DNA of 64,000 nucleotides, from positions 2,232,001 through 2,296,000 of the forward strand of contig OZ374560.1 in NCBI GenBank assembly GCA_977862235.1, read 5' to 3'. This DNA is from Dudresnaya verticillata (Eukaryota). The notes beneath the pieces are model-generated. The model was not told where the DNA came from and did not search any database. It saw only the letters and a list, made by a program, of their open reading frames with translations. Each line of letters opens with the position of its first letter. Within the stretch, counting starts at the first letter, position 1. Positions 40,761 through 62,810 of this stretch are shown piece after piece. The translations under genes were made by a program, and so were the position numbers.

Positions 40761-42136
40761 AGCCGGAAAACGGGTGCCAGATGATGTCGCACAAGGCTGG
40801 CTTTTTCAAAGGAGCAGGTAATACGACATGGGAAAGAGGCGTTGATCTGACCCGTTCCCTCCGATCCCAACTAAACGCGAATGCCGACTCTTGTAGCTGC
40901 TGCTGAATGAGTTGGTGGATATGTAAAATTTGGGAAGACGTTATATATAGAAGGCAGTTGCAAACGTCAACGACAAGCAGCTGCGCAACGTTCAGGTCGT
41001 AGTATACTTTGTATGCGTGAGTTCGAATCTCACCGCTGTCATCGGAGAGGGCAGCGTGGCCGAGCGGTCTATCTGGCAGATGTCCGCAATAAGGCGCTGA
41101 ACTGGGGCTGCTTTGCTTTCTCCTTTTTGCCTCTGGCTACAATTTGGATAACACGTTTAGGCCATCAACTACACGATGTCTTCATTTCAACTTGCAACTT
41201 TCAACCATATCAAGCAATTGCATCTGCAGTTGCTGCGCATTCATCTACCAGTGAGGCCAAGCGAGTCTGGAGAGTATGCTTCTCGAAGTGCATAAATGGA
41301 GCAAGCACAATATAATGCCGACTGGCAGTATTGGATACTTTGCGGGTGTGCTAGTTGCTGTGTTTTGCCTCGCTCTTTCCACATGCTATCAAACACTATG
41401 GAGCTCATTTGTGTACAACACGTCTGGTCGCTTATTCGGTTTTCAGTACGTGGGCAGCTTCCCAAATCCTTCCATAGGCAGTCAATGACTTGGCTGAGTA
41501 TGACCAATGCGCACCGATTCTCACTACTCGCCCAGTCATCAATGAACAATCCATACCGACAGCGAAGCCATTGTGCATAGTTGTCCGACAGACCAAGTCT
41601 CTTGATCCAAACTGCAACAGCAGCGGTGTTGTGGATCAACGCCTTTGTGCATCACAATGTCTAAACCGTTCCCACTTGAGGCGTGGCGCCGAAGGGTGTA
41701 CCACAAAGTGCGGTCGCGTGCGCTCTGACGAGGGACGCGCAACGGCCCACACAAAACGACGCACGTGTCCAGACGCGCGCTGCACGCCCAACCAGCGCGC
41801 AGAACGCGGAACGCATCGTCTGCCACTTCTTAGAGCGCCGCGCTCCCCGTCGCTGAGTTTCTTCCTCTTCTTCTCCCTCTGCTTATTGAGCCCTTGTTTC
41901 TGCATTCTGGCCTCAATCTTTCCGTGCTTTGTTTCTACCTCTTCCCCGCCCTGCCGCGCGTTAGTGCACCGCTTTTCGCTGCCGTCGCTGGCGTATTCTT
42001 CCCGCGCGCTTCGGGGGGAGAACTTGCTGTTCGAGTTCGTGCTACTCCTTTGTGTTCCGTCTTCACGCTTGGCGCTGCTTCCACTCCGGTTCGCCTCCAT
42101 CTCGCAGTGCTGTGTTACCCTCTATCTTTTCCCAAT

Positions 42137-43225
42137 ATGTCGCCGTCCAATCACGCCAAACGCTCTACCCAGGACGTACACCAAGACGCGTTTGTTGCTT
42201 TGACCCACGCTACCGTCGATTTCATGGCTACCTCTGCTGCACTATTGGACAAGGTCGTTGACCTTCAAAATCCTACCGCTGTGGACACCTTCCTCTCCAC
42301 TCTGGCCGACCTGCCTCGTGTGAAGGCGCTCTTACCCACGTTCGAGCGCAACCCCCACTTTCAGTCCCTGCTTCGCATCTTTTCGCACTTCTCTGCTGAC
42401 TCTGCTGTTTCTGCGAAACCGTCATCCGCTCCTTCGACCCCGCCGAGACCTTCGTATTTAGCGGCAACGACAACTGGTCCCGCCCCTAAACCGGTTCATC
42501 AGCTTCCAGTATTGGGTCGCAAGGGCCTCGTGGAGCATTCCAATGCTGGTAAAACACCGCTGTCTCGCAAATTCGCAGGTTCTGTTCGCGGCACAAACCG
42601 CGTCTTGTTCGGTGGGGATCAGAAGCGCCGTACTGCCACTGGCGCTCCCCCGCTTGCTTCCCCTGCTGAATTCCGCAAAGCGCTCAAGCAAGGTGGTTTC
42701 CCTGGCTCATGTGCTATCGTCCGCTCTGAAGACCCCACCGTGTTCTATGTCTGTGCTTCACTACGTGATCTCACCTACACGGAAGCTGCGTACAATTCGT
42801 TTACTGCTCTGGCCAAAGAATCGGACAACTTCGATGCCCCCCATCTGACCTTTTCCCCACCAATCGCTCTCAAGAATGTATTGACGTCGAGTGAAGATAT
42901 CAATACAATTGCGCGACCGCTACGAAATGAGATCAATCGTCTCGACGCTACAAGCTGTACCTGGCCTCCTCGAAAATACTTTTCTCTGGCACTGCGCTCA
43001 GAGTATGAAGCACTAGAAGAACGAATGACTTCACTCGGGCGCACGCTACCGAGTCTCACCGAACCCCCGACCGGTGCTGCTTCTTCTCGACCATCGCGTG
43101 TGTATCCCCGTTATTCTCGACCCGATTCTGATGGATGGACCACTGTTCTTGATTCCCATCCGCCCGCTCCTCCGTCGGCTTTGTCCCCAGATGTAACCGA
43201 CACTGCGATGCCTACGGCTGAGTAA
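42137..43225 (+). CDS. Retrotransposon ORF1, function unknown (362 aa from ATG 42137)
   Basis: Open frame inside the element; its stop overlaps the ORF2 start (TAATG); Pro/Ser-rich linkers. Confidence 0.75.
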   Translation: MSPSNHAKRSTQDVHQDAFVALTHATVDFMATSAALLDKVVDLQNPTAVDTFLSTLADLPRVKALLPTFERNPHFQSLLRIFSHFSADSAVSAKPSSAPSTPPRPSYLAATTTGPAPKPVHQLPVLGRKGLVEHSNAGKTPLSRKFAGSVRGTNRVLFGGDQKRRTATGAPPLASPAEFRKALKQGGFPGSCAIVRSEDPTVFYVCASLRDLTYTEAAYNSFTALAKESDNFDAPHLTFSPPIALKNVLTSSEDINTIARPLRNEINRLDATSCTWPPRKYFSLALRSEYEALEERMTSLGRTLPSLTEPPTGAASSRPSRVYPRYSRPDSDGWTTVLDSHPPAPPSALSPDVTDTAMPTAE

Positions 43226-46200
43226 TGGAAGAAACAACAACCCTCTTTCAAAAATGCCCTCGTCCGGACATCGTCTTTGCACTTCGTATCCCCACCGTCA
43301 AATATATTCCAAATTGTCTTCGTGCGGACTGGCACGCTTTATGCTTCCATCTTTTTAACCGATTCGCAGTCGCATCTACATGTACTGAAAAAGAAGAACG
43401 CTTCGCTAGTGTTTGTGCTGTGGCAAAGCTCGTGCTACGGTTTAATGGACGCGGAGAACCCAGAAATGGCAATAAGTCTGCACTGATTCGCCGTTTGCGT
43501 GACCGAATTCAACTGGCAATTCGCGGGCAATGGAATGACCTTTGGGAGCAAGCCTCCAGTGCCTTTCCCTCGCTTCCCAATACTTCTTGCCAACCTACAG
43601 TTGATCCTTTCCGCCAATGCCGTCGGTTTATGGCCGAGGGGGCCATCAGTAAGGCTGCGCGCGCTTTGTGCTCTACTACTTCTACTGTTATTGCTAATCC
43701 CAATACCAAGACGGTCATGGAATCGCTTCACCCGCGTCCGGAAATTCCAGTTAAACCCCGCTTGCCACAATCACTCCCAGCTGCATATACATTCAACATT
43801 CAACGAGGCGGATGTAAGAAGGGCTCTTAGAAGTCTTCCAGTACACAGCTCACCTGGCCCGGATGGTCTCCGTCCGCTTCATCTTAAGGCGTTAACGCAT
43901 GCCCCGGGTGGTTCGGAGCCATCCCACTCTGCAATCGTGGCTCTGACCGCCTTTGTCAACAAATGTGCTACGGGCTCTTTACCTCCTCGCTACAGTGCTT
44001 GGTTTGGGGGTGCCTTGCTTCTGGGTCTTCCGAAGCACCCATCGTGTGTTTCTATGCTTCGTCCTATTGCCATTGGTGGCATCCTTCGTCGTTTCCTTGC
44101 CCGCCTGTTGATGAAGAAGATTGCCCAGGACAATGCTATTCGTGATTACCTTCTTCCCCATCAATTTGCAGTGGGAATCCCTCATGGAGCCGAATCTATT
44201 ATTCACGCCATACGTTCTTTCGTGGAGTCTAATACTGAGCAAGACTATGTCCTTCTTAAGCTTGATGCCACCAATGCTTTTAATTGTGTTGAGCGTTCTA
44301 TTATTCTCAGTGAAGTTATCGAAAGAGCTCCTGGCATTGCAAAGTTTGTGCATTTCCTTTTCTCGACTGAACCCGTTCTTCTATTTGGTCAGTTTCAGTT
44401 GTTCAGTCGGACAGGTACACAGCAGGGTGATCCGTTGAGCATGCTACTTTTATCTCTTTCGATTCATCCCCTGCTCATCAACATGCTCTCTACGTTCGCC
44501 TCCATCAAACTTCTTGCTGCATATGCTGATGACATTCATGTTGCTGTTCCGCGTTCTATTGCTTTCGATGTTATCCAGTTTCTAAAGACCCGAGGCCCCA
44601 AAATTGGTTTCAATCTACACATAGCAGTGGGGAAAACAGAAGCTTGGTGGCCTTCTTTATCGTCCCGTCGTGTTTCTCGTTCCAACTCCCTAGGTTGTCC
44701 TATCAACAACCATTCTTTTATCACAGTTCTGGGCGCCCCTATTGGCAGTACTGAGGGCTGTTTACAACATCTAAGAACTAAGCATGAGCCCATCCAATAT
44801 TTCTGGGCCCAACTGAAGCAGCTTAATGATCCTCAACTCGTTTTTCATTTATTACGGTACTGTGCTGGAACTTCCAAGCTTTCATACCTACTGCGATGCA
44901 CTCCCCCGCAACTAACCCAAGCCATTTCATTAACACATGACTGTGGCATGCGTGGAGTGTTTGAACACACACACTTTCCACTGTCGGATGAATCCTGGGA
45001 TATGGTTTCGCTTCCCATGCGACACGGTGGACTAGGTCTTACAAATGCCCGTCACATTGCCCACTGCAGCTATATCACCTCCGTCCTGTCCTCTCCCGCC
45101 TGGATTCGATGCCTGGTACCTTTTGATTCTCCTACTTTGCACCATTTCCTCGCCCCGTCTCTTCATAACATTCGCGAACAGCAACTACTCCGTGAAGATC
45201 GTGAAAAATGCAGTGTTTCTTCTATCTTGTTGGCCGCATCTTCCATAGGCCATGGTGTCGTTCCCGCATTGTCCCAAGATCTTCTTCCCTATATTCAACG
45301 AAAATTACGACACGACTTCATGTCCCAGATGACTACTCAGCATAGCTCTCGTGCCCGAGTACGGATTCAATCTACCTCTACTGTCAACTCTAGCCGCCCT
45401 TTCAGTGCCCTCCCATATGCATCTTCTTCTACCCGCGTGCAACCCGACATATGGCTCACCATGCTCAAACTCAGACTGGGTGTGGCGATCTTCCGTGGTG
45501 ATCGCCCTTGTCCTGCTTGTCTCCATGGCACATCCGCTGAAGTTCCACTCCTTGATATCTATGGACACCATGCCACAATCTGTCGATCGGGAACTGGCAG
45601 CATTCGCCGCCATGATACCCTCCGAAATCAACTTGGGGCTTTCTTTCGTAATACTGCTCGGAACCATGGCGTTACTGTTCAGCTTGAACGCAACTTTTCC
45701 TACCTAGAGGAGACTGGGGATTCCCGAGTTATGGCGTCTTCTGCACGCACTGCTTCAGAAAGGCGTCGCGATGCCCGTCAATTACAACGTACTGAAGACC
45801 GTTTCGAAGAAGACCGACGTGACCATCTTCGTATGGATCTCTATGTTGATGACCCTGCGTTTGCACCCCTCCCGCAAGCATTTGACGTCTCCGTGGTGAC
45901 ACCACACCATCCAACTACACTGTCCAAAACGCCTCGCTCTCAACATCAAGCTATTCACCGCCGCGAGCAAGCTAAAGCCCGTCATTATCGTCGCTTATGT
46001 TCTACCAACCGGATAGATCTCCATCCTATGGTGATGGACATCTATGGTGCCATTGGTTCTGGGTTCGATCGAGGCGCTCAGCGCGTGGCGAATTTCCTAG
46101 CTGCTATGAAGGGTACTTAGCCGATATCTGAGAAACTATCTCTTCTCACCAACCTCACCTCTCTTGTACCTCAATCTGTCGCGGTGGCTGTTAACCGCCG

Positions 46201-46237
46201 TTTACTCTTCGACCGTCGCCTTTCAGATGAGTTTTAG
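43225..46237 (+). pseudogene. Retrotransposon ORF2 (RT + zinc knuckle + RLE) with one frameshift and one nonsense codon
   Basis: PGPDG, LRPIAIG, LDATNAFN, GTQQGDPLS, YADD, LPMRHGGLG, CPAC..HATIC, RHD, RMDL..D..E..K. A 7-bp duplication at 43791-43804 shifts the frame; TAG at 46118-46120 stands where other copies have TCG. Confidence 0.92.
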
Positions 46238-46351
46238 ATAAGCCCCCTTACGGGGCTGTAGTCTTTCCTATGCATAAAGGTCTCCATCTCTCCTCTTCTC
46301 TGCAATGGCGCAACACACTTTCTCCGCACTCGACATCGCCTTTGCTTTCCT

Positions 46352-49300
46352 TTACGTCTCCACCTCCAACACCAACACACGTCCGTCTCGGAGCCCGACG
46401 ACCAGTCGACCCTCCACAGCATTGTAGTCCCACGTCCCAGGCTCGGTCAAAGCTGCCGGAAGGGTCGCGAGAATCGGCCCGTCCTGCCCGAGGCGCACTG
46501 ACTGGCCCGAGACCCGTACGACAGCCTCCGCTGCAGACCCGCTCCGATGGCTTCCACTCCCGTGCAGCACTTCACTCTCACGAACTCTTCCAACAGCCGC
46601 CTCAATCTCCCGCAGACCATTTCCACTCACCTCATAGTAACGCTCATTCCCATTCCCATCACGAGCCTTCACAGTACTCGCCCCAACACATCCAACACTC
46701 GCAACAGGTGAATAAAATGTTTTCGGTTCGCCCACGGGCTTGCCGCTCCCCAACTCCCACACCCGCAACGTATCGTCCGAGCGGGACACGACGTGCCGCC
46801 CGTCTGGTGTCACCGCCACGAACCACACCGCATCCGTGTGACCGCGCAACGGCTCCCCCACGGGCTTGCCGCTCCCCAACTCCCACACCCGCAACGTCTC
46901 GTCCGACGACCCGGACACGACGTGCCGCCCGTCTGGCGTCACCGCCACGCACTCCACCGCATACGTGTGACCGCGCAACGGCTCCCCCACGGACTTGCCG
47001 CTCCCCAACTCCCACACCCGCAACGTCTTGTCCCGCGACCCGGACACGACGTGCCGCCCGTCTGGCGTCACCGCCACGCACTCCACCGAATCCTTGTGAC
47101 CGCGCAACGGCTCCCCCACGGGCTTGCCGCTCCCCAACTCCCACACCCGCAACGTCTCGTCCCACGACCCGGACACGACGTGCCGCCCGTCTGGCGTCAC
47201 CGTTACGCACCGCACCGAACCCGTGTGACCGCGCAACGGCTTCCCCACGGGCTTGCCGCTCCCCAACTCCCACACCCGCAACGTCTTGTCCCACGACCCG
47301 GACACGACGTGCCGCCCGTCTGGCGTCACCGCCACGCACGTCACATAACCCGTGTGACCGCGCAACGGCTCCCCCACGGGCTTGCCGCTCCCCAACTCCC
47401 ACACCCGCAACGTCTCGTCCGACGACCCGGACACGACGTGCCGCCCGTCTGGCGTCACCGCCACGCACTCCACCGCACACGTGTGACCGCGCAACGGCTC
47501 CCCCACGGGCTTGCCGCTCCCCAACTCCCACACCCGCAACGTCTCGTCCCACGACCCGGACACGACGTGCCGCCCGTCTGGCATCACCGTTACGCACCGC
47601 ACCGAACCCGTGTGACCGCGCAACGGCTCCCCCACGGGCTTGCCGCTCCCCAACTCCCACACCCGCAACGTCTCGTCCCACGACCCGGACACGACGTGCC
47701 GCCCGTCTGGCGTCACCGCCACGCACCGCACCCCATCCGTGTGACCGCGCAACGGCTCCCCCACGGGCTTGCCGCTCCCCAGCTCCCACACCCGCAACGT
47801 CTCGTCCCACGACCCGGACACGACGTGCCGCCCGTCTGGCGTCACCGCCACGCACAGCACCGTATTCGTGTGACCGCGCAGCGGTTCCCCCACGGGCTTG
47901 CCGCTCCCCAACTCCCACACCCGCAACGTCTTGTCCCGCGACCCGGACACGACGTGCCGCCCGTCTGGCGTCACCGCCACGCACTGCACTTCACCCGTGT
48001 GACCGCGCAGCGGCTCCCCCACGGGCTTGCCGCTCCCCAACGCCCACACCCGCAACGTCTTGTCGCCCGACCCGGACACGACGTGCCGCCCGTCTGGCGT
48101 CACCGCCACGCACTCCACCGACCTCGTGTGACCGTGCAGCGGCTCCCCCACGGGCTTGCCGCTCCCCAACTCCCACACCCGCAACGTCTTGTCCCGCGAC
48201 CCGGACACGACGTGCCGCCCGTCTGGGGTCACCGCCACGCAGTGCACCGACCTCGTGTGACCGCGCAGCGGCTCCCCCACGGGCTTGCCGCTCCCCAACT
48301 CCCACACCCGCAACGTCTCGTCCTCCGACCCGGACACGACGTGCCGCCCATCTGGGGTCACCGCCACGCACCACACCGCATTCTCGTGGCCGACGTACTC
48401 ACGGATGACAACGCTGCTTTCCAAGTCGATGAGCACTACTTTGTTCCTAATTCCTGCCACAACTTTTCCCTCATCCCCTGTCACAGCCAAGCTCCATACA
48501 CTGTCCGCACACGGGATTTCCATCTCTTGTCGACCACCAGGAATGTTCCAGCACCGAGTTAATGATCGAACTCGAGGTGTGGGGGACACCTTGCTGGCCG
48601 TCTCAAGGTACCGCCGCACGAGCCATGACTCATCGCATGAGTCCACCAAGCGCGACTGCATCTGGAACATCAGCTCCCTCGGGTTTCGAACAATGAACGC
48701 CCAGCTCTCCTGCGCTGCAGACCGCAGCAACTCCATACCCGCATCGAAATCTTCTTCACCAACCAACCCATTTGCCAAGCACGCCCACCGCAACTCTTTC
48801 ACATTCTCCTTCCACCCAGGGATGTCCAAAGGACTGCTATCTATGGTCATCCATCGTGGGTCAAGAAGAAGGCTGGCTAATTCCGTGTCACTCGGAGCTG
48901 GTATACCCTGCGAAATAATCGCCACCACATCAGCCATAGTACAACGCTCCTTCCACTTCGACCGTAAACAACGCAACGCAGCCGTCCTCATCGCCTCATC
49001 CCCAATGGAGTCCGCCCATTCTCGTGCGACTGCTCCAAGCCGACCCTCTCTTGCTAGACTCGGGGCGTTAATGAAATCCAGTTCCGAAAAGGGCGTCTCC
49101 CCACCCCCCAGGAAACACAAAAGTAGTCCAAAGCTCCACACATCCCACGACGGACGCGTCGGCGCCTTTCTTTGGTCCTTGAGCACCTCTGGTGGCATGA
49201 AAACAACCGTCCCTGACGCAGCTCCTCTACTACTCCTCAGCGTATACGTTTCCATCTGCTTTGTCACCTGCACTTCTCGCGACACGCCAAAGTCGCACAG

Positions 49301-50551
49301 CTTGGCAGGCCTCACAACCTCACCGTCCCTAACACGCAACAACACGTTTTCAGGCTTCACGTCCCTGTGAACAACGCTCTTCTCGTGCAGATGTGCGAGC
49401 GCAGCAGCCACATCCAGCGCGATACCCTTTCTCACAGCCATGTCCTCCACCGCTGCCGAGTATTCTTGAATCGCTTCGTGGAGGCTGCAGGTCATGCGTT
49501 CTAGAACAATCATCGGGTTGTGGCCGTCTTCTGTCTCATCGCTCTTCGCCCAGATGGCCCCATGTGCCTCCAAGATACAGCGATGCCGGTACTGAATCAG
49601 GCCGTGCACCTCACGCAAAAACTTTGGCTTGAACTTCTCCAGTTCCGGCTTCTTTACCCTTAGCTCTTTGACTGCCACTTCCAGGAATGTTTCACCTTGG
49701 CGGAGCTTCGCTTTGTACACCCTGCTGAAACCGCCTTCACCCAACTCGACCCATCCTCCCCTTCTGCCTTTCTCAAACACCAAGTCGTCAAACTTCAACT
49801 CCCACCGAGTCTGGAAGTCGTCTATCTTCTGCTGTAGCTTCCGTTTCACATCTTCCGGGACATCGCTTTTCGCTATCAACTTCATCGCCATGGGCAGCGA
49901 TGATATGAATTGGATCTCGTCCTCCTCCTCCTTATCAAGCTGTTCAGATTGTATACTCATTGTCGGGCCTGGAGAGTGGGGCGAGGTCTGACTGGGGCTA
50001 CTCGAGCTGCTCGGATCTGTTCCTTGAAGTCGCGCAGAAGTGGCATCGATTGAGACCACCTCATCTTGTGCCGTCACGTCTCCCGCAGAGGAAGAGCTCG
50101 GAACGTCTTTGATGACATGCTTGTGCAACAGTTCATATATTTCACTGAGGCGGGAGTCATGGATCTGAAAGTGTTTCACCATGAGCCGACAAGCATCCAA
50201 GTGTCTTTCTAGCCCTGTCACAAGGGATTGTACCTTTATGATCGCCTCACGAGCTTCGATGCTGCCTAGCAACGAGCGTAAAGGCTTTCGTTTGTCTACC
50301 TGCTGCGAAAGTGACTTCAAATGGGGCTGAATCATTTCCAACTCTGCTCTAATGTGGCTGCTGACATCGTCGTGGATGGCGGAGAGGTAGTCGTTGTTGC
50401 GAAAGTCTTGATAAGCCAAGCGAATACGTTGAATGCCATTGGCTATCGTCACGAAGGATGTTGCGTTTTGTTTGCGAGCTTCAAGACTATTACGAATGTG
50501 CTGAACAACCTTGATACTGGTCTCGACGAGAGAAATCACAGAGTCCACCAT
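46352..50551 (-). CDS. Helical-bundle / protein kinase / APAF-1-like helical / WD40-repeat protein, copy A (1399 aa from ATG 50551; 13 conserved WD40 repeats)
   Basis: Kinase motifs GEGGFS, VAVK, HRDVKPEN, DFG, GTVVFMPPE and DVWSFG; GH..WE repeats of 43 aa; ATG chosen because it is conserved in copy B. Confidence 0.93.
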   Translation of the reverse strand: MVDSVISLVETSIKVVQHIRNSLEARKQNATSFVTIANGIQRIRLAYQDFRNNDYLSAIHDDVSSHIRAELEMIQPHLKSLSQQVDKRKPLRSLLGSIEAREAIIKVQSLVTGLERHLDACRLMVKHFQIHDSRLSEIYELLHKHVIKDVPSSSSAGDVTAQDEVVSIDATSARLQGTDPSSSSSPSQTSPHSPGPTMSIQSEQLDKEEEDEIQFISSLPMAMKLIAKSDVPEDVKRKLQQKIDDFQTRWELKFDDLVFEKGRRGGWVELGEGGFSRVYKAKLRQGETFLEVAVKELRVKKPELEKFKPKFLREVHGLIQYRHRCILEAHGAIWAKSDETEDGHNPMIVLERMTCSLHEAIQEYSAAVEDMAVRKGIALDVAAALAHLHEKSVVHRDVKPENVLLRVRDGEVVRPAKLCDFGVSREVQVTKQMETYTLRSSRGAASGTVVFMPPEVLKDQRKAPTRPSWDVWSFGLLLCFLGGGETPFSELDFINAPSLAREGRLGAVAREWADSIGDEAMRTAALRCLRSKWKERCTMADVVAIISQGIPAPSDTELASLLLDPRWMTIDSSPLDIPGWKENVKELRWACLANGLVGEEDFDAGMELLRSAAQESWAFIVRNPRELMFQMQSRLVDSCDESWLVRRYLETASKVSPTPRVRSLTRCWNIPGGRQEMEIPCADSVWSLAVTGDEGKVVAGIRNKVVLIDLESSVVIREYVGHENAVWCVAVTPDGRHVVSGSEDETLRVWELGSGKPVGEPLRGHTRSVHCVAVTPDGRHVVSGSRDKTLRVWELGSGKPVGEPLHGHTRSVECVAVTPDGRHVVSGSGDKTLRVWALGSGKPVGEPLRGHTGEVQCVAVTPDGRHVVSGSRDKTLRVWELGSGKPVGEPLRGHTNTVLCVAVTPDGRHVVSGSWDETLRVWELGSGKPVGEPLRGHTDGVRCVAVTPDGRHVVSGSWDETLRVWELGSGKPVGEPLRGHTGSVRCVTVMPDGRHVVSGSWDETLRVWELGSGKPVGEPLRGHTCAVECVAVTPDGRHVVSGSSDETLRVWELGSGKPVGEPLRGHTGYVTCVAVTPDGRHVVSGSWDKTLRVWELGSGKPVGKPLRGHTGSVRCVTVTPDGRHVVSGSWDETLRVWELGSGKPVGEPLRGHKDSVECVAVTPDGRHVVSGSRDKTLRVWELGSGKSVGEPLRGHTYAVECVAVTPDGRHVVSGSSDETLRVWELGSGKPVGEPLRGHTDAVWFVAVTPDGRHVVSRSDDTLRVWELGSGKPVGEPKTFYSPVASVGCVGASTVKARDGNGNERYYEVSGNGLREIEAAVGRVRESEVLHGSGSHRSGSAAEAVVRVSGQSVRLGQDGPILATLPAALTEPGTWDYNAVEGRLVVGLRDGRVLVLEVET
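46730..48400 (-). repeat. 13 tandem 129-bp WD40 repeats with high internal conservation
   Basis: Consensus GEPLRGHTxxVxCVAVTPDGRHVVSGSxDxTLRVWELGSGKPV. Confidence 0.97.
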
Positions 50552-52179
50552 CGTGTGAAGGCAAAAAATGCCAACAGAAAGAAGCAACTGGATTTGGCCT
50601 TGTGATGAATCGGCAGTTGGCGAGCTTGACGATAGTGGAAACGACTCAAAAGCCGGATTTTGGGCGGCGGTTGACGGGGAACAGACCGTTGCTGTTTCGT
50701 ACTTGGAAAGTTCTTGTGAAGCAGAAAACGCTTGTGGGCTCGCGCCGTTCACGCCAGTATCCACCAAGGGTAGTGCACCTGGGTCGGGTGCGTACGAGTC
50801 TGTGAGTTCTCCGCGGTTTTTCTGAATATCGGTTGTGATGTCGACACCGCCGTTGGTGGTCACACAGCTCAGATGTATTCTCAGCCACAGACTCGCCTGC
50901 GGGACGCAACAAAGCGGGTCACTGGAAGCTGTATGACTTCATCTGCTTGCACACTTCTCCAGCCGAGTCGCAAGGACAGCCAAGAAATGCGGTCGAAACG
51001 GTTGTCGGGATTGGTCGGAACTGCTCCGAATCAGCACAAGCGGGCAAACTTGTTGTAAGTGCGGAAGCAGCCCTTGAGCGACAACAAGCACAGCAGAATC
51101 AGTCAGCCATTGGCGTTCCGCGCTTGACGGTGGGACATTGCCAGGGACGGTTCTGCACTGTTGGCATCACCAAACAATTGCTCGCGCAAGCACTTCATGC
51201 GGTACCCAACCGGACCAACTACTGCGTTGAATGCACACACATCTCCCCGTCCACCATCGCGCAATACACTACGCGCCGGCAAATCTCGTTCTCGCGAGGC
51301 AGGCACAACTTGTGCCCGACGCTGCGGCACACACTTCTTGCGCATGCTTGTGGTTCCCACAGCGAGCGTCCCGGAGGCGCGGCTTTCGCGCGCAGCTTGT
51401 CCGCCGCTAGCGGGCGCTGTCGACGGGCGGCGCCGCTGAGCTCCACGAGCAGCAGCGTGGCAGATGTTGGTGCGGACGACGGACGGCGTTCGGCGTGGGT
51501 GGGTGGCGGTTGGTGTTGACGCAGCCTTGAGAGCGCCATGGTGCTCGCGCCACGCTCCGTACGGCAGCTGCGGAGAAACGAAAGACACAGACCTGCGCAC
51601 TTTCGTTTCGGCGACCGGCGGCAGAGCGTAATTTGGAAAATCGGTAACTGTTTTGACGCGTTTGTAATTGACGTGTGCAAGACGTTCTGTCCGTGTTGTA
51701 CAACGGGGCGGACGCCGGCCATCCAACGTATGCCTCTTGGCAGCAATGCAACGCATTCATTTACAAGTGAGTTTGGACGGGTCAGGAGAGTATGCTTCCC
51801 GCAGCGAATAAATGCAACAGGCAACATCATACGGACTAGAGACGAAGCATCTTGAAGCTGCTGCGAGAAAGATTGGAGTCCAGGTGTACTGCAGGGTTAT
51901 CCGAGATGGGTTGACACATACAATCGAGCGCAGAAGCGTCCCTGTGCATGTTGGGCTTGCCATGGAGGGATCAAGCTGAGTTAAGATCAGCGAGGTGGTC
52001 GTCTCTCGCATCTCCCAGTAGGTCAGAATAGACCTGAACACTTACTTGCTGATAACCGAGGCACAGCAGTGAGTCTGATGATCGGGCTTTTGTCTAAGGC
52101 ATCATCTCGCAATAAAGAGCACTCGATAGAATTTTCCATTAAATTCTTCGTTAAGAGCCATTACACACTCAACGACTCC

Positions 52180-52620
52180 CTATTTGTCATTCATTGAAGC
52201 TAAATGCACATATAGCACGGACAAGAATTACAATGAGTCCCAGAATCTTGCGAACCTTACCATAATAAAGCAATTCAATTCAACACAGAAGGTCCAGCCC
52301 CTCGCCCAATCTCTCCAAGCCCTGTCGCTCCCAGAACCACTCGCCGCTGATATCTGCGCCATCTCTGACACAATCCCATCTATCCGGGACGCCTGCAGCC
52401 ACGCGTTTCCCCTGTCTACTTCCCACCCTCAACCCAGTCGGTCCCCACGTAACTGATCCCTTTCCGAAGGATAGCTCCACCCCCTTTACCGGTCATAGGA
52501 TACTTTTAATGGATGTCATCAAGAATAACCTTAACAACTGTAGCTTGCCGGTGTGCTTGCCCATGGGCCATCGTCGCCCGCACAAGACCACCCTAAACAA
52601 CCATTAAAATCAAGCATCAC
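52180..52620 (+). mobile_element. 3' end of family-4 repeat inserted in duplication unit B (insert spans about 51830-52620)
   Basis: VQPLAQSLQALSLPEPLAADICAISDTIPSIRDACSHAFPL and the tail are homologous to 22137-22605; absent from unit A. Confidence 0.65.
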
Positions 52621-53604
52621 AATATAATGCCGACTGGTAGTATTGCATACTTTGTGGGTGTGCTAGTTGCTGTGTCCTCGCTCTTTCCACATGCTATCAA
52701 ACACAATGGAGCTCATTTGTGTACAACACGTCTGGTCGCATATTCGGTTTCTAGTACGTGGGCAGCTTCCCAAATCCTTCCATAGGCAGTGAATGACTTG
52801 GTCGAGTATGACCAATGCGCACCGATTCTCACTACTCGCCCAGTCATCAATGAACAATCCATACCGACAGCGAAGCCATTGTGCATAGTTGTCCGGCAGA
52901 CCAAGTCTCTTGATCCAAACTGCAGCAGCAGCGGTGTTGTGGATCAACGCCTTTGTGCGTCACAATGTCTAAACCGTTCCCACTGGAGGCGTGGCGCCGA
53001 AGGGTGTAACACAAAGTGCGGTCGCGTGCGCTCTGACGCGGGACGCGCAACGGCCCACACAAAACGACGCACGTGTCCAGACGCGCGCTGCACGCCCAAC
53101 CAGCGCGCAGAACGCGGAACGCATCGTCTGCCACTTCTTAGAGCGCCGCGCTCCCCGTCGCTGAGTTTCTTCCTCTTCTCTGCAATGGCGCAACACACTT
53201 TCTCCGCACTCGACATTGCCTTTGCTTTCCTTTACGTCTCCACCTCCAACACCAACACACGTCCGCTTAGCAGCCCGACGACCAGTCGACCTTCCGCAGC
53301 ATTGTAGTCCCACGTCCCAACCACGGGCAAAGCTGCCGGAAGGGTCGCGAGAATCGGCCCGTCCTGCCCGAGGCGCACTGACCGCCCCGAGACCCGTACG
53401 ACAGCCTCCGCTGCAGACCCGCTCCGATGGCTTCCACTCCCGCGCAGCACTTCACTCTCACGAACTCTTCCAACAGCCGCCTCTATCTCCCGCAGACCAT
53501 TTCCACTCACCTCAAAGTAACGCTCGTTCCCTTTCCCATCACGAGCCTTCACAGTACTCGCCCCAAAACTTCCAACACTCAGAACAGGTGACGAGAACGC
53601 TTCC

Positions 53605-54640
53605 GGTTCGCCCACGGGCTTGCCGTTCCCCAACTCCCACACCCGCAACGTCTCGTCCCCCGACCCGGACACGACGTGCCGCCCGTCTGGCGTCACCGCC
53701 ACGCACCACACCCCATTCGTGTGACCGCGCAACGGCTCCCCCACGGGCTTGCCGCTCCCCAACTCCCACACCCGCAACGTCTCGTCCCCCGACCCGGACA
53801 CGACGTGCCGCCCGTCTGGCGTCACCGCCACGCACCGCACCCAACTCGTGTGACCGCGCAACGGCTCCCCCACGGGCTTGCCGCTCCCCAACTCCCACAC
53901 CCGCAACGTCTTGTCCATCGACCCGGACACGACGTGCCGCCCGTCTGGCGTCACCGCCACGCACCGCACCCAACTCGTGTGACCGCGCAACGGCTCCCCC
54001 ACGGGCTTGCCGCTCCGCAACTCCCACACCCGCAACGTCTCGTCCCACGACCCGGACACGACGTGCCGCCCGTCTGGCGTCACCGCCACGCACTGCACCC
54101 AATGCGTGTGACCGCGCAACGGCTCCCCCACGGGCTTGCCGCTCCCCAACTCCCACACCCGCAACGTGCTATCCGTCGACCCGGACACGACGTGCCGCCC
54201 GTCTGGCGTCACCGCCACGCATCACACCCCATTCGTGTGACCGCGCAACGGCTCCCCCACGGGCTTGCCGCTCCCCAACTCCCACACCCGCAACGTCTCG
54301 TCCCGCGACCCGGACACGACGTGCCGCCCGTCTGGCGTCATCGCCACGCACTGTACCCAACTCGTGTGACCGCGCAACGGCTCCCCCACGGGCTTGCCGC
54401 TCCCCAACTCCCACACCCGCAACGTGCTATCCGTCGACCCGGACACGACGTGCCGCCCATCTGGCGTCACCGCCACGCACAGCACCCAATCCGTGTGACC
54501 GCGCAACGGCTCCCCCACGGGCTTGCCGCTCCCCAACTCCCACACCCGCAACGTCTCGTCTTCCGACCCGGACACGACGTGCCGCCCGTCTGGCGTCACC
54601 GCCACGCACCACACCCTATTCTCGTGGCCGATGTACTCGC
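53605..54640 (-). repeat. 8 tandem 129-bp WD40 repeats
   Basis: Same consensus as 46730-48400 with different variable codons. Confidence 0.97.
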
Positions 54641-55112
54641 GGATGACAACACTGCTTTCCAAGTCCATGAGCACTACTTTGTTCCCAATTCCTGCCACAA
54701 CTTTTCCCTCATCCCCTGTCACAGCCAAGCTCTCTACACTGTCCGCACATGGGATTTCCATCTCTTGTCGACCACCAGGAATGTTCCAGCACCGAGTTAA
54801 TGATCGAACTCGAGGTGTGGGGGACACCTTGCTGGCCGTCTCAAGGTACCGCCGCACGAGCCATGACTCATCGCATGAGTCCACCAACCGCGACTGCATC
54901 TGGAACATCAGCTCCCTCGGGTTTCGAAAAATGAACGGCCAGCTCTCTCGCGCTGCTGACCGCAGCAACTTCATGCCCGTATCGAAATCTTCTTCACCAA
55001 CCAACCCATTTGCCAAGCACGCCCACCGCAACTCGTTCACATTCTCCTTCCACCCAGAGATGTCCAAAGGACTGGTATCTATGGTCATCCATCGTGGGTC
55101 AAGAAGAACGTT

Positions 55113-55346
55113 GGCAAATTCCACATCTTTCGGAGCATCAACCCCGACCCCTGGTACATTCCGCGAGACTATCCCCAACAGATCCGCCATGGCAAATTCT
55201 GCGTCACTCGGAGTATCAACCCTGAGCTCTGGTACATCCCGCGAGATCGTCCCCACCACATCTGCCATGGCTGATTCAGCGTCACTAGGAGCATCATTCC
55301 CGACCCCTGGTATACCCTGCGAAATAATCGCCACCACATCAGCCAT
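55113..55346 (-). repeat. Three diverged 78-bp (26-aa) coding repeats MADxxxxxSxxxPxxxxDxPxDxExA
   Basis: ATG codons at 55346, 55268 and 55190; copy A has only one shortened unit. Confidence 0.88.
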
Positions 55347-58300
55347 AGTGCAACGCTCCTTCCACTTCGACCGTAAACAACGCAACGCAGCCGTCCTCAT
55401 CGCCTCATCCCCAATGGAGTCCGCCCACCGTCGTGCGACTGCTCCAAGCTGATCCTCTCTTGCTAGACTCGGGGCGTTAATGAAATCCAGTTCCGAAAAG
55501 GACGTCGCCCCACCCCCCAGGAAACATAAAAGTAGTCCAAAGCTCCACACATCCCACGACGGACGCGTCGGCGCCTTTCTTTGGTCCTTGAGCACCTCTG
55601 GTGGCATGTAAACAACCGTCCCTGACGCAGCTCCTCTACTACTCCTCAGCGTATACGTCTCCATCTGCTTTGTCACCTGCACTTCTCGCGACACGCCAAA
55701 GTCGCACAGCTTGGCAGGCCTCACAACCTCGCTGTTCCTAACACACAGCAACACGTTTTCAGGTTTCACGTCCCTGTGAACAACACTCTTCTCGTGCAGA
55801 TGAGCGAGCGCGGCAGCCACATCCAGCGCGATACCCTTTCTCACTGCCATGTCCTCCACAGCTGCCCAGTGCTTTTGAATCGCTTTGTGGAGGCTGCATG
55901 TCATACGTTCTAGAACAATCATCGGGTTGTGAACGTCTTCAGTCGCACCGATCCTCGCCCAGATGGCACCATGTGCCTTCAAGATACAACGATGCCGGTA
56001 CTGAATAAGGGCGTGCATCTCACGCAAAAACTTTGGCTTGAACTTCTCCAGTTCCGACTCCTCTACTTTCAGTTCTTTGACTGCCACTTCCAGGAATGTT
56101 TCACCTTGGCGGAGCTTCGCTTTGTACACCCTGCTGAAACCGCCTTCACCCAACTCGACCCATCCTCCCCTTCTGCCTTTCTCAAACACCAAGTCGTCAA
56201 ACTTCAACTCCCACCGAGTCTGGAAGTCGTCTATCTTCTGCTGTAGCTTCCGTTTCACATCTTCCGGGACACCGCTTTTCGCTATCAACTTCATCGCCAT
56301 GGGCAGGGATGATATGAATTGGATCTCGTCCTCCTCCTCCTTATCAAGCTGTTCAGATTGTATACTCCTTGTCGGGCCTGGAGAGTGGGGCGAGGTCTGA
56401 CTGGGGCTACTCGAGCTGCTCGGATCTGTTCCTTGAAGTCGCGCAGAAGTGGCATCGATTGAGACCACCTCATCTTGTGCCGTCACGTCTCCCGCAGAGG
56501 AAGAGCCCGGAACGTCTTTGATGACATGCTTGTGCAACAGGTCATATATTTCACTGAGGCGGGAGTCATGGATCTGAAAGTGTTTCACCATGAGCCGACA
56601 AGCATCCAAGTGTCTTTCTAGCCCTGTCACAAGGGATTGTACCTTTGTGATCGCCTCACGAGCTCCGATACTGCCTAGCAACGAGCGGAAAGGCTTTCGA
56701 TTGTGTACCTGCTGCGAAAGTGCCTCCAAATGGGGCTGAACCATTTCCAACTCTGCTCTAATGTGGCTGCTGACATCGTCGTGGATGGCGGAGAGGTGGT
56801 GGTTGTTGCGAAAGTCTTGATAAGCCACGCGAATACGTTGAATGCCATTGGCTATCGTCACGAAGGATGTTGCGTTTTGTTTGCGAGCTTCAAGACTATT
56901 ACGAATGTGCTGAACAACCTTGATACTGGTCTCGAGGAGAGAAAGCACAGAGTCCACCATCGTGTGAAGGCAAAAAACGTCAACCGAAAGAAGCAACGGG
57001 ATTTGGTCTTGTGATGAATCGGCAGTTGGCGAGCTTGACGGTAGTGGGAAGCGGCTTAAAAGCCGGAGTTTTGAGTGGCGGTTGACGGCGAACAGGTTGC
57101 TGCGGTTGCTGTTTCGTACTCTGGAAGTTTTCTCAAAGAGAAAGCGCTTGGTTGGTTGCTTGCCGAAAGCGTTTATGGGCTCGCGTCGTTGACGCCAGTA
57201 TGCACCAAGTGAAACAAAACTCGTTTACTCATCGCCGACGCCGAGCTAAAAGGGCCGAATGAAATCAACGCAAAAATAACCAAAAAGCTAGAAAGTGGCG
57301 GACAGAAAAGCCGCTCTGCGCGTACTCCCGACGTGTTCTTGATGAGAGCTCACCAGGTCCGCACGCCACCACAGTACAGTATAAGCGAAGTACTTGTGGA
57401 GGGCCTCTTACGTCAGCACGTCAGTACAGTAGCTGCGCCGGTCGAGTACGGCACTGTACCGCGAAAGCGCCACGTCCTTGTTTCGCCAAGGCGTATGCTG
57501 CGCGGGGCGGGTGCAACTTCGACCCCGGCGTCGGCGGTGACACAGGTCAGATAAATTCCCAGTCACAGACTGAGCCCGCAACAATGCCGGTCACTGAGGC
57601 GGGTGCAAGACTCATCTCCGAGGGGAACAATCAGAGGAAGAAGCAGAGAAAGGAATGGGTCGCTGCTCAACCACGAAGAAAACCGGCCGGTTGTGATGGT
57701 GACAATAACGTTGGTTGTGAGAGGAAAATAGGATTCCTGTCCAGGGGCAATCATAGCGCTCCCCCTCTATCTACTCGCCTTCCACGCCACCCCTGCTGTT
57801 CTGTTTCAATACTTGTCTGAGACGAGGTCGCTGCGCCAGTGGATAAGCAACTGCGTTCCTTGCCGCACATTACAATGTATCTGGCCCTTCCCAACCTCAC
57901 AGTAGTGTGCCCCGAGCCTTCTAGGACAGAGACCGTCAACAAAAGCATGACAAGCACCGCCTACTACAGTACTTCGCCGTTCTTCCCATGGGCACGGAGA
58001 AGAAGTGCGTCATCATGACGCTCATCACGCGACGATGCTAGCCACGCCAAACACCAATACAGAGAGAACATATCTCTCGGCTGCCCTTTTACCCACCACA
58101 AACCCTGCCCAGCTCCAAATCTTCACCCTTGTCGCAACGCCCGCGAGATCCGCGAGGATGCGAGAGCGCGGTATCTACCACACACTCAGCGCAGCCTCAT
58201 ACACTTTCTACATCTGCTCGAATGAGTGAGTGAAGTAACAGTACGCCGCTCCAGAGCCGCACCTTCCATAACAAATGGTATCATATGGGTGCAGTAAGAA

Positions 58301-59739
58301 GACAAGCACACACGCGCGCCGACCTGTCCAACCTGCGGCGCCATGCTGCAGTATGCACGCAGAAGCCGATCGCGAGGTGTACGTGGCGCGGGCTCCAGCA
58401 TTGCACGCGCTTGTTCTTGCCAGGCTGCGGGAGCACCTACACGGGGCGAATGGCTGTTACGGACCTGGACAGCGTGAACAACTGCGGTTTTGCAGCAGGG
58501 TCAGGTGCCCCCTCTCGGAGGTTGAAGGGCAGGCAAGGGAATTTTGCATCGGTGAGGGAGGAGAAGCATGTTCGCATTGGTTGACGAGCACGTGATATTT
58601 TCGTGCAACAATATTGTACAAGTTCAGTGACAGCTCTCGAGATTTCTTCTCTTGCGCAAGCGATTGTCTGTTTGGCTCCGGACGCATGTGGCATTGACTC
58701 CGTGTTTGGTCGCGCATGCATCGCTCTCTGCCGGCACAAAGTGACAAAGTATCAAGTCCTTCCACAGCTCCTGCTCTGCTGAAAAACCTCTTACGGTCAA
58801 GGTCAACGCTTGAAAACAACTCGCTGTCTCCCGGCTCGTCTAGTTTCGATTGTACTCCAACACGTCGCCTGTACTGTGAACCTTCGCCGCCTTCTCAGCA
58901 CTCCCGTCCTTCCTCGGATGTCCCTTCCCCTAATGGCATCCTCTAGAGGGCACGGATAGCCATCGGAGACGCCAAGACGGAAGCTTGTCTTACTGAGAAA
59001 ATATTTCTGCAGTTGCTTCCATGCCGGCAGATTATTCAGAGAGAGAGATGCACTTGACTCCGCGAGATGCTACTACTGTAGTCCCATAACAAAGGGGGCT
59101 CCGCAAAGATCAGACAATCATCAGGGCCTCTACAGACGATGATATCATCCTCTATCAATGCGACCATCATTAGTCATCCGGCTTACACACACTATTCAGA
59201 AACGTTTCTTCCTATCACTATCGAGTACGCGCAATCCGGGCTGCAAGCGAGCTCATACAGTTCAGTACAGTTCATGTTGCATGAGAGTTGCATCAGCCCT
59301 TCAAAACATTGCATTCTTTGATCGTTTGGCATGGTCGGGTGTGAACATCATCATCATCATCGTGTGAACATTGGAAATGAACATATGGGGCGCTCTGTGC
59401 CTCAGAGTCTGCGATCGCGATAGCAGCTGTGTGCTCCAGAACGGACAAGGTTGCATCCTCGTCTTTCTCAGAGCACTTCCCGCACGGTATCTGAGCGCAG
59501 ATTCTGAAACCTTCTTTACCGCTCTTACATCATGTCCGTACGCAAGGTCGCAACCTTGGTCGCAACCTTGCATTTCAGAGCCCACCTCTGTTTCCCTTCA
59601 TGAGCACGATGTAGTGACTACTGCATAAATACCTACGCTAGGTTTCCTTCCGATGCGAAAAGCCCTCCTCATCAACCTTTCCTCTTCAACAACCGTCTTT
59701 CATCACTCGTCTTTACGCTTCTATCCCGCTCCCACAAAA

Positions 59740-59967
59740 ATGGCTCTTTTCAAGATGTTCGCGATGCTGTTCGTGGTTCTCCTCGTCTCCGGCGCTGTTA
59801 ATGGTGCTGCAGTGAAGGAGGCGAAGCGCCCGGAGGTCAACCTGCAGACCATGATCAAGTTCATGAAGGAGCTGTTCCCGTGTCAGACGGATAGCGACTG
59901 CAACAAGCAGATGTCCGGATATTCGTTCTGTGACCGCGATCATGCCTTCTGCATTCCCCTGTATTAA
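59740..59967 (+). CDS. Small secreted 4-Cys peptide precursor, copy 1 (75 aa)
   Basis: Signal peptide, pro-like segment with KR, and C-x5-C-x9-C-x6-C; near-identical second copy with diverged flanks; AAAAATGG context. Confidence 0.85.
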   Translation: MALFKMFAMLFVVLLVSGAVNGAAVKEAKRPEVNLQTMIKFMKELFPCQTDSDCNKQMSGYSFCDRDHAFCIPLY

Positions 59968-60444
59968 GAGGAGTGGAACAATCTGCATGGTTGGACTAGC
60001 ATGACACGCAGCTTCGGTTTTCAGAAGGTCCATCCTCGTATGTTAATCTCAAGGTAGGGATGCCATGCCAGCAGCTTATACATGTTGGCAAATGCTCCCC
60101 TTATCTGTTAGTAGTGCAGTCCTTTTTTCCAAGCGTGCCTCTTTGTCGGAGATTAACCAATCGCAAAGAGCAAACCAAATCTTATGTCGCAGAGGGTCTT
60201 CACAACTATGGAAACAGATGAGCTACATGAGCAACTCTGTTCATGTCTATTGTTTATTGTTGTTTCAGGTGCTAGCTATGGGTGCATACTGTGCCATCTA
60301 ACTCGTCTCACTTCTTTAGTTCTAAAATGCGTTCGAAGAGGCTGTTATCCGGCGTAAGCCGGTAGACCGTCGCCTAGAGCCCAGTCCTTGCTAAGCCCCA
60401 TAAGGAGCTTGTAGACTTCTGATGAAAAAAGGGAATACACGTAT

Positions 60445-60626
60445 GAAGGTTACTTCGCCGATATCCGAAAAACTATCTCTTCTCACCCACCTCACCTCTC
60501 TTGTACTTCAATCTTTCGCGGTGGTTATTAACCGCCGTTTATTCTTCGACCGTCGCCTTTCAGATGAGTTTTAGGTAAGCCCCCTTACGGGGCTGTAGTC
60601 TTTCCTATGCGTAAAGGTCTCCATCT
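60445..60626 (+). mobile_element. 5'-truncated family-1 retrotransposon 3' end, 7-bp TSD
   Basis: Matches 46108-46289; CACGTAT at 60438-60444 and 60627-60633. Confidence 0.88.
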
Positions 60627-62582: not shown

Positions 62583-62810
62583 ATGGCTCTTTCCAAGATG
62601 TTCGCGATGCTGTTCGTGGTTCTCCTCGTCTCCGGCGCTGTTAATGGTGCCGCAGTGAAGGAGGCGAAGCGCCCGGAGGTCAACCTGCAGACCATGATCA
62701 AGTTCATGAAGGAGCTGTTTCCGTGTCAGACGGATAGCGACTGCAACAAGCAGATGTCCGGATATTCGTTCTGTGACCAGGGTCATGCCTTCTGCATTCC
62801 CCTGTATTAA
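62583..62810 (+). CDS. Small secreted 4-Cys peptide precursor, copy 2 (75 aa)
   Basis: Three amino-acid differences from 59740-59967; TATAAAA near 62466. Confidence 0.85.
   Translation: MALSKMFAMLFVVLLVSGAVNGAAVKEAKRPEVNLQTMIKFMKELFPCQTDSDCNKQMSGYSFCDQGHAFCIPLY

What the first reader, a model, noticed from the sequence alone, without database searches (positions are those of the whole stretch)
46352..56960. Candidate NTPase-less immune receptor: MLKL-like helical bundle + active kinase + APAF-1-type helical domain + hypervariable WD40 array
Seen: a duplicated single-exon gene with about 125 amphipathic N-terminal residues, a kinase with all catalytic motifs, a roughly 115-aa helical segment and a homogenised WD40 array; no Walker A/NB-ARC/NACHT motif is visible. 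Established: fungal NWD/HET-E-type and APAF-1-type STAND receptors use helical domain + WD40 sensors, and MLKL pairs a four-helix-bundle executioner with a (pseudo)kinase. Inference: this protein fuses an NLR-type sensor directly to an MLKL-like unit, so ligand binding could activate the kinase and release a membrane-acting bundle. I know of no description of this four-part architecture but cannot exclude one.
Basis: partly seen in the sequence, partly recalled or inferred. Interest (0 to 1): 0.9.

Follow-up and report, generated by a model that had tools for sequence, protein, structure and literature searches.

The report
Hypervariable sensor fused to MLKL-like kinase
A tandemly duplicated gene, probably from a red seaweed, joins a predicted four-helix bundle and a kinase with all catalytic motifs to a fast-varying WD40 repeat array of the kind fungal immune receptors use, so it is likely an immune sensor that switches through a kinase instead of the usual ATPase; the second copy carries a premature stop.

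Summary
Observation confirmed, with one correction. Copy A (46352-50551, minus) is an intact 1399-aa frame. Copy B (53232-56960) has an in-frame TGA in its fourth WD40 repeat.

The protein is a two-module chimera. Residues 1-547 (predicted four-helix bundle, intact kinase) match four unnamed kinase-Sel1 proteins. Residues 555-1399 (truncated APAF1_C-related helical segment, WD40 array, C-terminal cap) match ATPase-less relatives of NB-ARC-WD40 receptors. No hit held both halves. Named relatives are red algal.

The repeats are 93% alike, yet vary at five codons (pN 0.54, pS 0.15 at the four most variable), spaced like the diversifying sites of fungal HET-E (chance 0.0008). The kinase shows purifying selection between copies (pN/pS 0.34).

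The bundle is compatible with MLKL/NLR coiled-coil folds but not specific to them. The APAF1_C link is indirect, and the fold search was inconclusive.

Best reading: an ATPase-less immune receptor whose kinase is the likely switch and output, as in wheat Pm13. A pore-forming bundle is the main rival. Each part has precedent; I did not find the four-part combination in the databases or ten literature searches. Nothing functional is shown.

The parts
46352..50551 (-). Copy A: intact 1399-aa gene, bundle + kinase + truncated APAF1_C-related helical segment + WD40 array
50186..50551 (-). Predicted N-terminal four-helix bundle, residues 1-122; helix 1 amphipathic (moment 0.50)
   Evidence: weak SesA hit E 0.029, below cut-off
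49808..49939 (-). Residues 205-248, likely helical and brace-like, just before the kinase; aligned in the kinase-Sel1 relatives
   Evidence: alignment only; helicity and role inferred, not modelled
48911..49804 (-). Ser/Thr-type protein kinase, residues 250-547, all catalytic motifs present
   Evidence: pN/pS 0.34 between copies, Fisher p 1.5e-4
48527..48889 (-). Helical segment, residues 555-675: distal part of the pre-WD40 helical domain (APAF1_C/HD2-related) of NB-ARC-WD40 proteins
   Evidence: fold search inconclusive
46724..48381 (-). 13 homogenised 129-bp WD40 repeats, variable at repeat positions 6, 7, 9, 25, 27
46355..46561 (-). C-terminal cap shared with the ATPase-less helical+WD40 relatives
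   Evidence: the 8 best hits all lack a Walker A motif
53232..56960 (-). Copy B: tandem duplicate, 8 repeats, broken by an in-frame stop
54222..54224 (-). Premature TGA at variable position 9 of repeat 4 of copy B
   Evidence: not checked against reads
55112..55346 (-). Three 78-bp units at the kinase/sensor junction of copy B (one shortened unit in A)
53604..54621 (-). 8 homogenised WD40 repeats of copy B
41872..46290 (+). Retrotransposon with reverse transcriptase, inserted 53-61 bp past the stop codon of copy A; 9-bp target duplication at 41863-41871 and 46291-46299; empty site at 53171-53179 behind copy B
   Evidence: (RVT_1 E 6.6e-9)

Best explanation
Copy A encodes a predicted four-helix bundle and a kinase with all catalytic motifs fused to a helical segment and 13 hypervariable WD40 repeats, and it is likely a cytosolic non-self receptor of a probable red alga in which the kinase, not an ATPase, would be the switch. 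It most likely arose when the Sel1 repeats of a bundle-kinase-Sel1 protein were replaced by an already ATPase-less helical+WD40 module descended from NB-ARC-WD40 receptors (inferred). Proposed steps, all inferred: the bundle holds the kinase off; a foreign or modified-self protein binds the variable face of the propellers; the helical arm passes this on, kinases pair through the brace-like helices and autophosphorylate; kinase activity starts defence or local cell death. Repeat exchange plus selection at five codons would keep renewing specificity. Copy B is probably a null or truncated allele.
For: Shown. Homology to the kinase-Sel1 proteins P0002-P0005 (E 6e-75 to 4e-43) covers bundle and kinase and stops at residue 547. 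The kinase groups with 7 Sel1-bearing kinases at SH-aLRT 100 in a quick tree of 40 rows. Homology to the sensor family starts at about residue 555. The 5 best of 44 hits lack a Walker A motif; 15 of the 33 hits that start in the helical part have one; 0 of 44 have a kinase domain. NB-ARC is confirmed by Pfam in 4 of the 5 Walker A proteins scanned; the fifth list was cut at 25 families. APAF1_C is hit by 6 of 29 aligned members (best E 2.8e-7), and the 6 top PDB sequence hits of the profile are all APAF-1 (E 0.019-0.29). In 18 core repeats, 60 of 71 non-majority residues fall on 5 of 43 positions; pN 0.54 against pS 0.15 at the four most variable codons, and pN 0.015 against pS 0.044 outside the six set-aside codons. 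Their spacing (6, 7, 9, 25, 27) equals HET-E positions 11, 12, 14, 30, 32 (PMC12222747); 0.0008 of 200,000 random draws fit. Kinase pN/pS is 0.34 between copies, p 1.5e-4. Precedent for kinase output: in Pm13, brace+kinase killed, a kinase-dead form did not, and neither the bundle nor the full-length protein did (PMC11297308).
Against: No functional data of any kind. The bundle's fold match is not specific. The query's own helical segment has 0 Pfam hits, and the APAF-1 alignment covers mainly the part that this protein lacks or only begins with. The variable codons were chosen from the data, so pN there is inflated. The repeat pattern may have been inherited from or exchanged with other genes, which cannot be checked without the genome. 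Such arrays are often misassembled from short reads (PMC12222747 abstract). The direction of the swap is unrooted: the window pair is sister to the Sel1 kinases rather than nested in them, and the helical-segment tree is weakly resolved. The ATPase-less Ulva APAF1_C/WD40 knock-out had no phenotype (PMC8891106). One of the two copies is broken.
Confidence: 0.47

Rival explanations
1. All-in-one MLKL-like executioner: ligand binding activates the kinase, autophosphorylation frees the bundle, and the bundle oligomerises and permeabilises the membrane.
For: The predicted bundle aligns with MLKL (Z 9.1, rmsd 2.7, 97 residues), NRG1.1 CC-R (Z 9.4-10.7) and Rx-CC (Z 9.2-12.1). It has a weak SesA hit, a profile placed among MLKL-likes in bioRxiv 2022.03.16.484565. 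Its profile matches the N-termini of 6 Walker A-WD40 relatives at 84.8% probability, E 6.6e-6, where a bundle would sit in the effector position. Helix 1 starts at the N-terminus and is amphipathic.
Against: Unrelated bundles (dynactin, IncA, Cbl, THATCH) score as high or higher. The 6 N-termini were picked by eye for looking alike. In Pm13 the bundle did not kill. Between copies the bundle shows 13 replacement and 1 silent change, with no sign of purifying selection (p 0.2 against neutral).
Confidence: 0.25
2. Sensor or decoy only: the WD40 array or the kinase is bait, and a separate NLR or effector protein gives the output; or the ligand is a self allele or a symbiont signal rather than a pathogen molecule.
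For: HET-D/E recognise a host protein, HET-C (PMC12222747). Sensor-plus-NLR models are proposed for kinase fusion proteins (PMC11297308). Ulva APAF1_C/WD40 expression follows its symbionts (PMC8891106). NB-ARC-WD40 proteins exist in red algae.
Against: No NB-ARC gene lies in the 64-kb window. The catalytic motifs are fully kept and under purifying selection.
Confidence: 0.17
3. A recent, functionless chimera or an assembly artefact of a repeat-rich region.
For: One copy has a stop. A retrotransposon sits just past the other's stop codon. No second genome with the whole architecture was found.
Against: Both copies carry the same kinase-to-sensor join yet differ by about 5-7% in DNA. The 4.2-kb frame of A is intact. 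The kinase is under purifying selection (p 1.5e-4), and repeat variation is confined to the HET-E-equivalent sites.
Confidence: 0.11

Closest known systems
Wheat/Aegilops Pm13 (MLKL-K; MLKL_NTD + brace + Ser/Thr kinase)
   Same: Four-helix bundle, linker helices and a catalytically intact kinase in one chain; a resistance protein (PMC10951266 abstract; PMC11297308 passages).
   Different: Pm13 has no repeat sensor. No sequence link of the bundle to MLKL_NTD was shown here, and the kinase belongs to a family whose named members are red algal.
Glomeromycotina MLKL homologues with Sel1 repeats
   Same: Bundle-kinase unit followed by a repeat domain (PMC8778642 passage); the nearest database relatives of this kinase have the same layout.
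   Different: Here the repeat domain is an NLR-derived helical+WD40 module with homogenised, hypervariable repeats. The fungal proteins are untested, and no relation to them was tested here.
Fungal HNWD receptors (HET-D, HET-E, HET-R)
   Same: WD40 repeats with high internal conservation and variable sites at the same spacing.
   Different: They have a HET effector and a NACHT ATPase; this protein has neither, and has a kinase.
Green-algal APAF1_C/WD40 proteins (Ulva UM033_0004) and red-algal NB-ARC/WH/APAF1_C/WD40 proteins
   Same: A helical domain plus WD40 array that has lost its NB-ARC is already described (PMC8891106).
   Different: Those have no N-terminal bundle or kinase. The segment here lacks the front of APAF1_C and has no direct Pfam hit.
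Animal MLKL and plant AtMLKL
   Same: Order bundle - brace - kinase fold; bundle fold compatible.
   Different: MLKL is a pseudokinase switched by RIPK3 and has no sensor (PMC12881547 passages); this kinase keeps all motifs.

Membership tests
MLKL / MLKL_NTD-HeLo-RPW8 superfamily | N-terminal four-helix bundle of MLKL topology | tested here: inconclusive
   Four helices predicted. MLKL Z 9.1, rmsd 2.7, 97 aligned, tied with or below unrelated bundles; no Foldseek hit at E<=0.001.
MLKL / MLKL_NTD-HeLo-RPW8 superfamily | Sequence profile match to a family member | tested here: inconclusive
   SesA E 0.029, 15 bits against a cut-off of 26.3, only in the 2 window copies of 6 members; no MLKL chain among 9 PDB sequence hits. 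The CDD MLKL_NTD model is not held.
MLKL (animal, AtMLKL) | Catalytically dead pseudokinase | tested here: not met
   VAVK, HRD and DFG all intact.
MLKL (animal, AtMLKL) | Bundle oligomerises and permeabilises membranes | not testable with these tools
   Needs a cell-death or liposome assay.
STAND/NLR (NB-ARC or NACHT) | Central P-loop NTPase | tested here: not met
   No Walker A motif; no room between kinase end (547) and helical segment (555); no NB-ARC-like stretch in the window.
STAND/NLR (APAF-1 type) | APAF1_C / HD2 helical domain before the WD40 array | tested here: inconclusive
   Homologous (E 1.8e-8 and weaker) to the pre-WD40 segment of NB-ARC proteins; 6 of 29 members hit APAF1_C, the query does not. 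Fold search best Z 4.1, APAF-1 not listed.
HNWD-type HIC WD40 sensors | Repeats 80-100% identical | tested here: met
   DNA identity 0.93 within copies, 0.92 between, range 0.88-0.99 over 18 repeats; definition from PMC13449251.
HNWD-type HIC WD40 sensors | A few hypervariable codons at the known positions | tested here: met
   Five variable sites match the spacing of positions 11, 12, 14, 30, 32; positions 10 and 39 are nearly or wholly invariant here.
HNWD-type HIC WD40 sensors | Repeat-number polymorphism in wild populations | not testable with these tools
   Only two paralogues (13 and 8 repeats); no alleles held.
Kinase fusion proteins of the Pm13 type | Bundle + brace + kinase with intact catalytic motifs | tested here: met
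   The brace is inferred from alignment only.
Kinase fusion proteins of the Pm13 type | Kinase-dependent resistance or cell death | not testable with these tools
   Needs an assay.

The most novel reading that the evidence does not exclude
Red seaweeds have a class of one-chain immune receptors in which an MLKL-like bundle-kinase unit takes interchangeable sensors (Sel1 repeats, or an NLR-derived helical+WD40 module diversifying at the HET-E sites). An active kinase replaces both the NLR ATPase switch and the RIPK3 step, and directly licenses cell death.
Probability: 0.3. Interest if true: 0.88.

Novelty: new variant of a known kind. Interest (0 to 1): 0.68.

Why it matters
Few immune receptors of red algae have been characterised: the papers seen list candidates by domain only. 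This gene carries its own signs of a receptor (homogenised repeats varying at the HET-E sites) and a testable output (an intact kinase plus a bundle). If true, an NLR-type WD40 sensor can work without a STAND ATPase, wired straight to a kinase, and the same five propeller positions diversify in a lineage far from fungi. It gives a single, small construct set for asking whether seaweeds have necroptosis-like or kinase-fusion immunity, which bears on disease in farmed seaweeds.

Tried and rejected
No whole genome is held, so family size and repeat exchange with other genes could not be tested. The ESM Atlas gave no answer.

The word-based search of residues 548-700 found 0 hits among 574 candidates. 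The N-terminal profile against longer proteins returned only 3 of its own members among 7996 candidates.

Fold searches of the helical-segment model did not list APAF-1 (Foldseek none at E<=0.001; VIA best Z 4.1); absence there excludes nothing. Foldseek of the bundle gave no hit at E<=0.001. A Cry6Aa sequence hit of the bundle profile (E 3e-4, 39 residues of one helix) was set aside as a likely amphipathic-helix match. The kinase had no solved relative at E<=1e-20.

Complex prediction of four copies of residues 1-248 gave no answer (score 0.00, alignment not used). No RNA holder was listed. One DNA run with a 0.07 share gave only short low-depth pieces and did not cover the stop in copy B.

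P0163's HGDIK motif is not a kinase (no kinase hit). An intron removing copy B's stop was rejected because the 129-bp register is unbroken.

The Chondrus and Porphyra genome papers could not be read. They and their supplements may list such kinases, as may the unread supplementary tables 9-10 of PMC11297308. Four of five answered look-ups of earlier findings were empty; one search gave one.
Full report
1. Observation. Copy A is one open frame of 1399 aa at 46352-50551 on the minus strand. Pfam finds a kinase at 269-543 (E 3.2e-37) and 13 WD40 repeats. The kinase keeps GEGGFS271, VAVK292, LRE312, HRDVKPEN395, DFG420 and MPPE452; neither copy has a GxxxxGK[ST] motif. Copy B spans 53232-56960 and is 93-95% alike in DNA. 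It has 8 repeats and an in-frame TGA at 54222-54224, at variable position 9 of repeat 4, where the sister repeat B8 has TGG. B also has three 78-bp units at the kinase/sensor junction against one shortened unit in A. A 4.4-kb element with a reverse transcriptase (RVT_1, E 6.6e-9) lies just past A's stop codon, with a 9-bp target duplication; the empty site is seen behind B.

2. The front half. A search with residues 1-700 gave 571 hits; of the 120 listed, four stand far above the rest (P0002-P0005, E 6e-75 to 4e-43; next 3e-28), and all four carry Sel1 repeats after the kinase. Their likeness covers the bundle, a stretch before the kinase and the kinase, and stops at residue 547. In a quick tree of the two copies and 38 of the 120 listed kinases, the copies group with 7 Sel1-bearing kinases at SH-aLRT 100, as sister to them rather than inside them; one of the 7 is from Gracilariopsis chorda. 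The careful tree did not finish. The model of residues 1-150 has four long helices (pLDDT 77.6, 6 sequences). VIA-align gives MLKL Z 9.1 (rmsd 2.7, 97 aligned), NRG1.1 CC-R 9.4, MLA13 9.2 and Rx-CC 9.2, but dynactin 11.8 and other unrelated bundles rank higher; the second look has IncA 12.7, Rx-CC 12.1, MLKL 9.0. The tool warns that Z under about 13 for helical bundles may mean only a common arrangement. A SesA hit is weak (E 0.029). A profile comparison with six hand-picked N-termini of Walker A-WD40 relatives gave 84.8% probability, while one of them alone gave 1.2%. So the bundle is compatible with the MLKL/HeLo/CC superfamily but is not shown to belong to it.

3. The back half. A full HMMER search with the 164 residues after the kinase gave 44 hits. 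Of these, 33 start in the helical part; 15 of the 33 have a Walker A motif, the five best hits have none, and 0 of 44 have a kinase. NB-ARC was confirmed in four of five Walker A proteins scanned. Named members are G. chorda 'HET-E-1' and a Hildenbrandia rubra protein; most others are unnamed. This, with the kinase tree, is the basis for calling the host a probable red alga. I aligned 27 of the 33 (leaving out P0130, P0133, P0142, P0152, P0153, P0155) with both copies. Six of the 29 rows hit APAF1_C (best 2.8e-7); the query does not. The profile's six best PDB sequence hits are APAF-1, weakly (E 0.019-0.29), over APAF-1 residues 482-545. In the alignment the NB-ARC proteins carry a helix upstream of the shared 'EL..LL.D.RW' motif that the window protein and its best hits lack, so the segment is a front-truncated form. 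Its model is confident (pLDDT 88.4), but fold searches were inconclusive. The last 69 residues match only the ATPase-less group (8 best hits). The whole back half thus looks like a captured stand-alone helical+WD40 protein. Some ATPase-less hits may be incomplete gene calls.

4. The repeats. Over 18 core repeats (first repeats and A13 left out), DNA identity is 0.93 within A, 0.93 within B and 0.92 between copies; without the variable codons it is 0.98. Five of 43 positions hold 60 of 71 non-majority residues. At positions 6, 7, 9, 25 pN is 0.54 and pS 0.15; outside these and positions 26-27, pN is 0.015 and pS 0.044. The sites were chosen from the data, but there is an outside check. HET-E sites under diversifying selection are 10, 11, 12, 14, 30, 32, 39 (PMC12222747, passage). 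The five sites here fit 11, 12, 14, 30, 32 at one offset, which 0.0008 of random draws do. Positions 10 and 39 hardly vary here. Between copies the kinase has 26 replacement and 23 silent differences (pN/pS 0.34, p 1.5e-4); the bundle has 13 and 1 (p 0.2 against neutral, 0.011 against the kinase); the helical segment is near 1.

5. How it most likely works. Shown: the anatomy, the two sets of relatives, the repeat pattern and selection on the kinase. Inferred: everything after. The variable propeller face likely binds a foreign or altered protein, as the HET-E sites are predicted to. [quoted passage not shown] For the output I favour the kinase. In Pm13, the tested case of a bundle with an active kinase, brace plus kinase caused kinase-dependent death, while the bundle, bundle plus brace and full-length protein did not, and the authors propose that the bundle inhibits (PMC11297308, passages).

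6. What is known. Bundle plus active kinase: Pm13 (PMC10951266, abstract). MLKL homologues with Sel1 repeats: Glomeromycotina (PMC8778642, passage). HeLo-like domains on kinases: mentioned for fungi (PMC12881547, passages). MLKL_NTD fused separately to kinase, WD40 or NLR: grasses. APAF1_C/WD40 without NB-ARC: Ulva, knock-out without phenotype (PMC8891106; abstract, first part of results, discussion). Homogenised repeats occur in 5.59% of repeat proteins without an ATPase against 22.04% with one (PMC13449251, passages). Red-algal candidates are listed as NB-ARC+WD40, TIR+kinase, WD40 and Sel1 proteins (PMC6928737, PMC12115072, passages). It works like a fusion of Pm13 and an HNWD sensor but is a member of neither MLKL proper (active kinase) nor the NLRs (no NTPase). 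Ten searches showed no description of the four-part protein in their listings or in the passages read; the Chondrus and Porphyra genome papers were not available. An earlier scan note (e1-7550406) reports a bundle plus active kinase fused to glycosyltransferases in a probably algal genome; unchecked, it hints that this front module takes varied partners.

7. Verdict. A real, well-formed chimera with strong sequence signs of a non-self receptor. It is a new variant of known kinds, seen so far in one genome with one intact copy, with no functional evidence. Interest 0.68.

Noticed in passing
window 41872-46290 (+): A 4.4-kb retrotransposon (362-aa first ORF, RVT_1 ORF) with a 9-bp target duplication sits in the likely 3' untranslated region of copy A; partial relatives lie at 15061-15655, 21359-22103 and 60442-60627.
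   Followed up: partly
window 2557-3816 and 9657-10883 (+): Two related ORFs of about 410 aa built of 222-bp (74-aa) repeats whose consensus is rich in cysteine codons, 65% alike in DNA, with no convincing Pfam family.
   Followed up: no
proteins P0122-P0126, P0131, P0132, P0134, P0154, P0163: An unnamed group of ATPase-less proteins that begin at or near the same truncated APAF1_C-related motif and go on with divergent WD40 repeats; most share the C-terminal cap. I saw no description of it in red algae.
   Followed up: partly
proteins P0129, P0144, P0146, P0147, P0149-P0152, P0155, P0156: Walker A (NB-ARC-type)-WD40 proteins with helical N-termini resembling the window's bundle; one is named from Gracilariopsis chorda. 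P0136 has a TIR-like start instead (by eye). Possibly a red-algal bundle-NLR class.
   Followed up: partly
proteins P0002-P0005: Bundle-kinase-Sel1 proteins with the same layout as the Glomeromycotina MLKL-Sel1 proteins; P0002 has DLG in place of DFG.
   Followed up: partly
window 50186-50551 and 56595-56960: The bundle differs between copies by 13 replacement and 1 silent change, unlike the kinase (p 0.011); diversifying selection or decay of copy B.
   Followed up: partly
window 29969-30553 (-) and 32511-33539 (+): A metallo-beta-lactamase-fold ORF fragment (E 2.8e-10) and a C2H2 zinc-finger ORF.
   Followed up: no
window 59681-60092 and 62526-62935: A 410-bp direct repeat, 85% alike.
   Followed up: no
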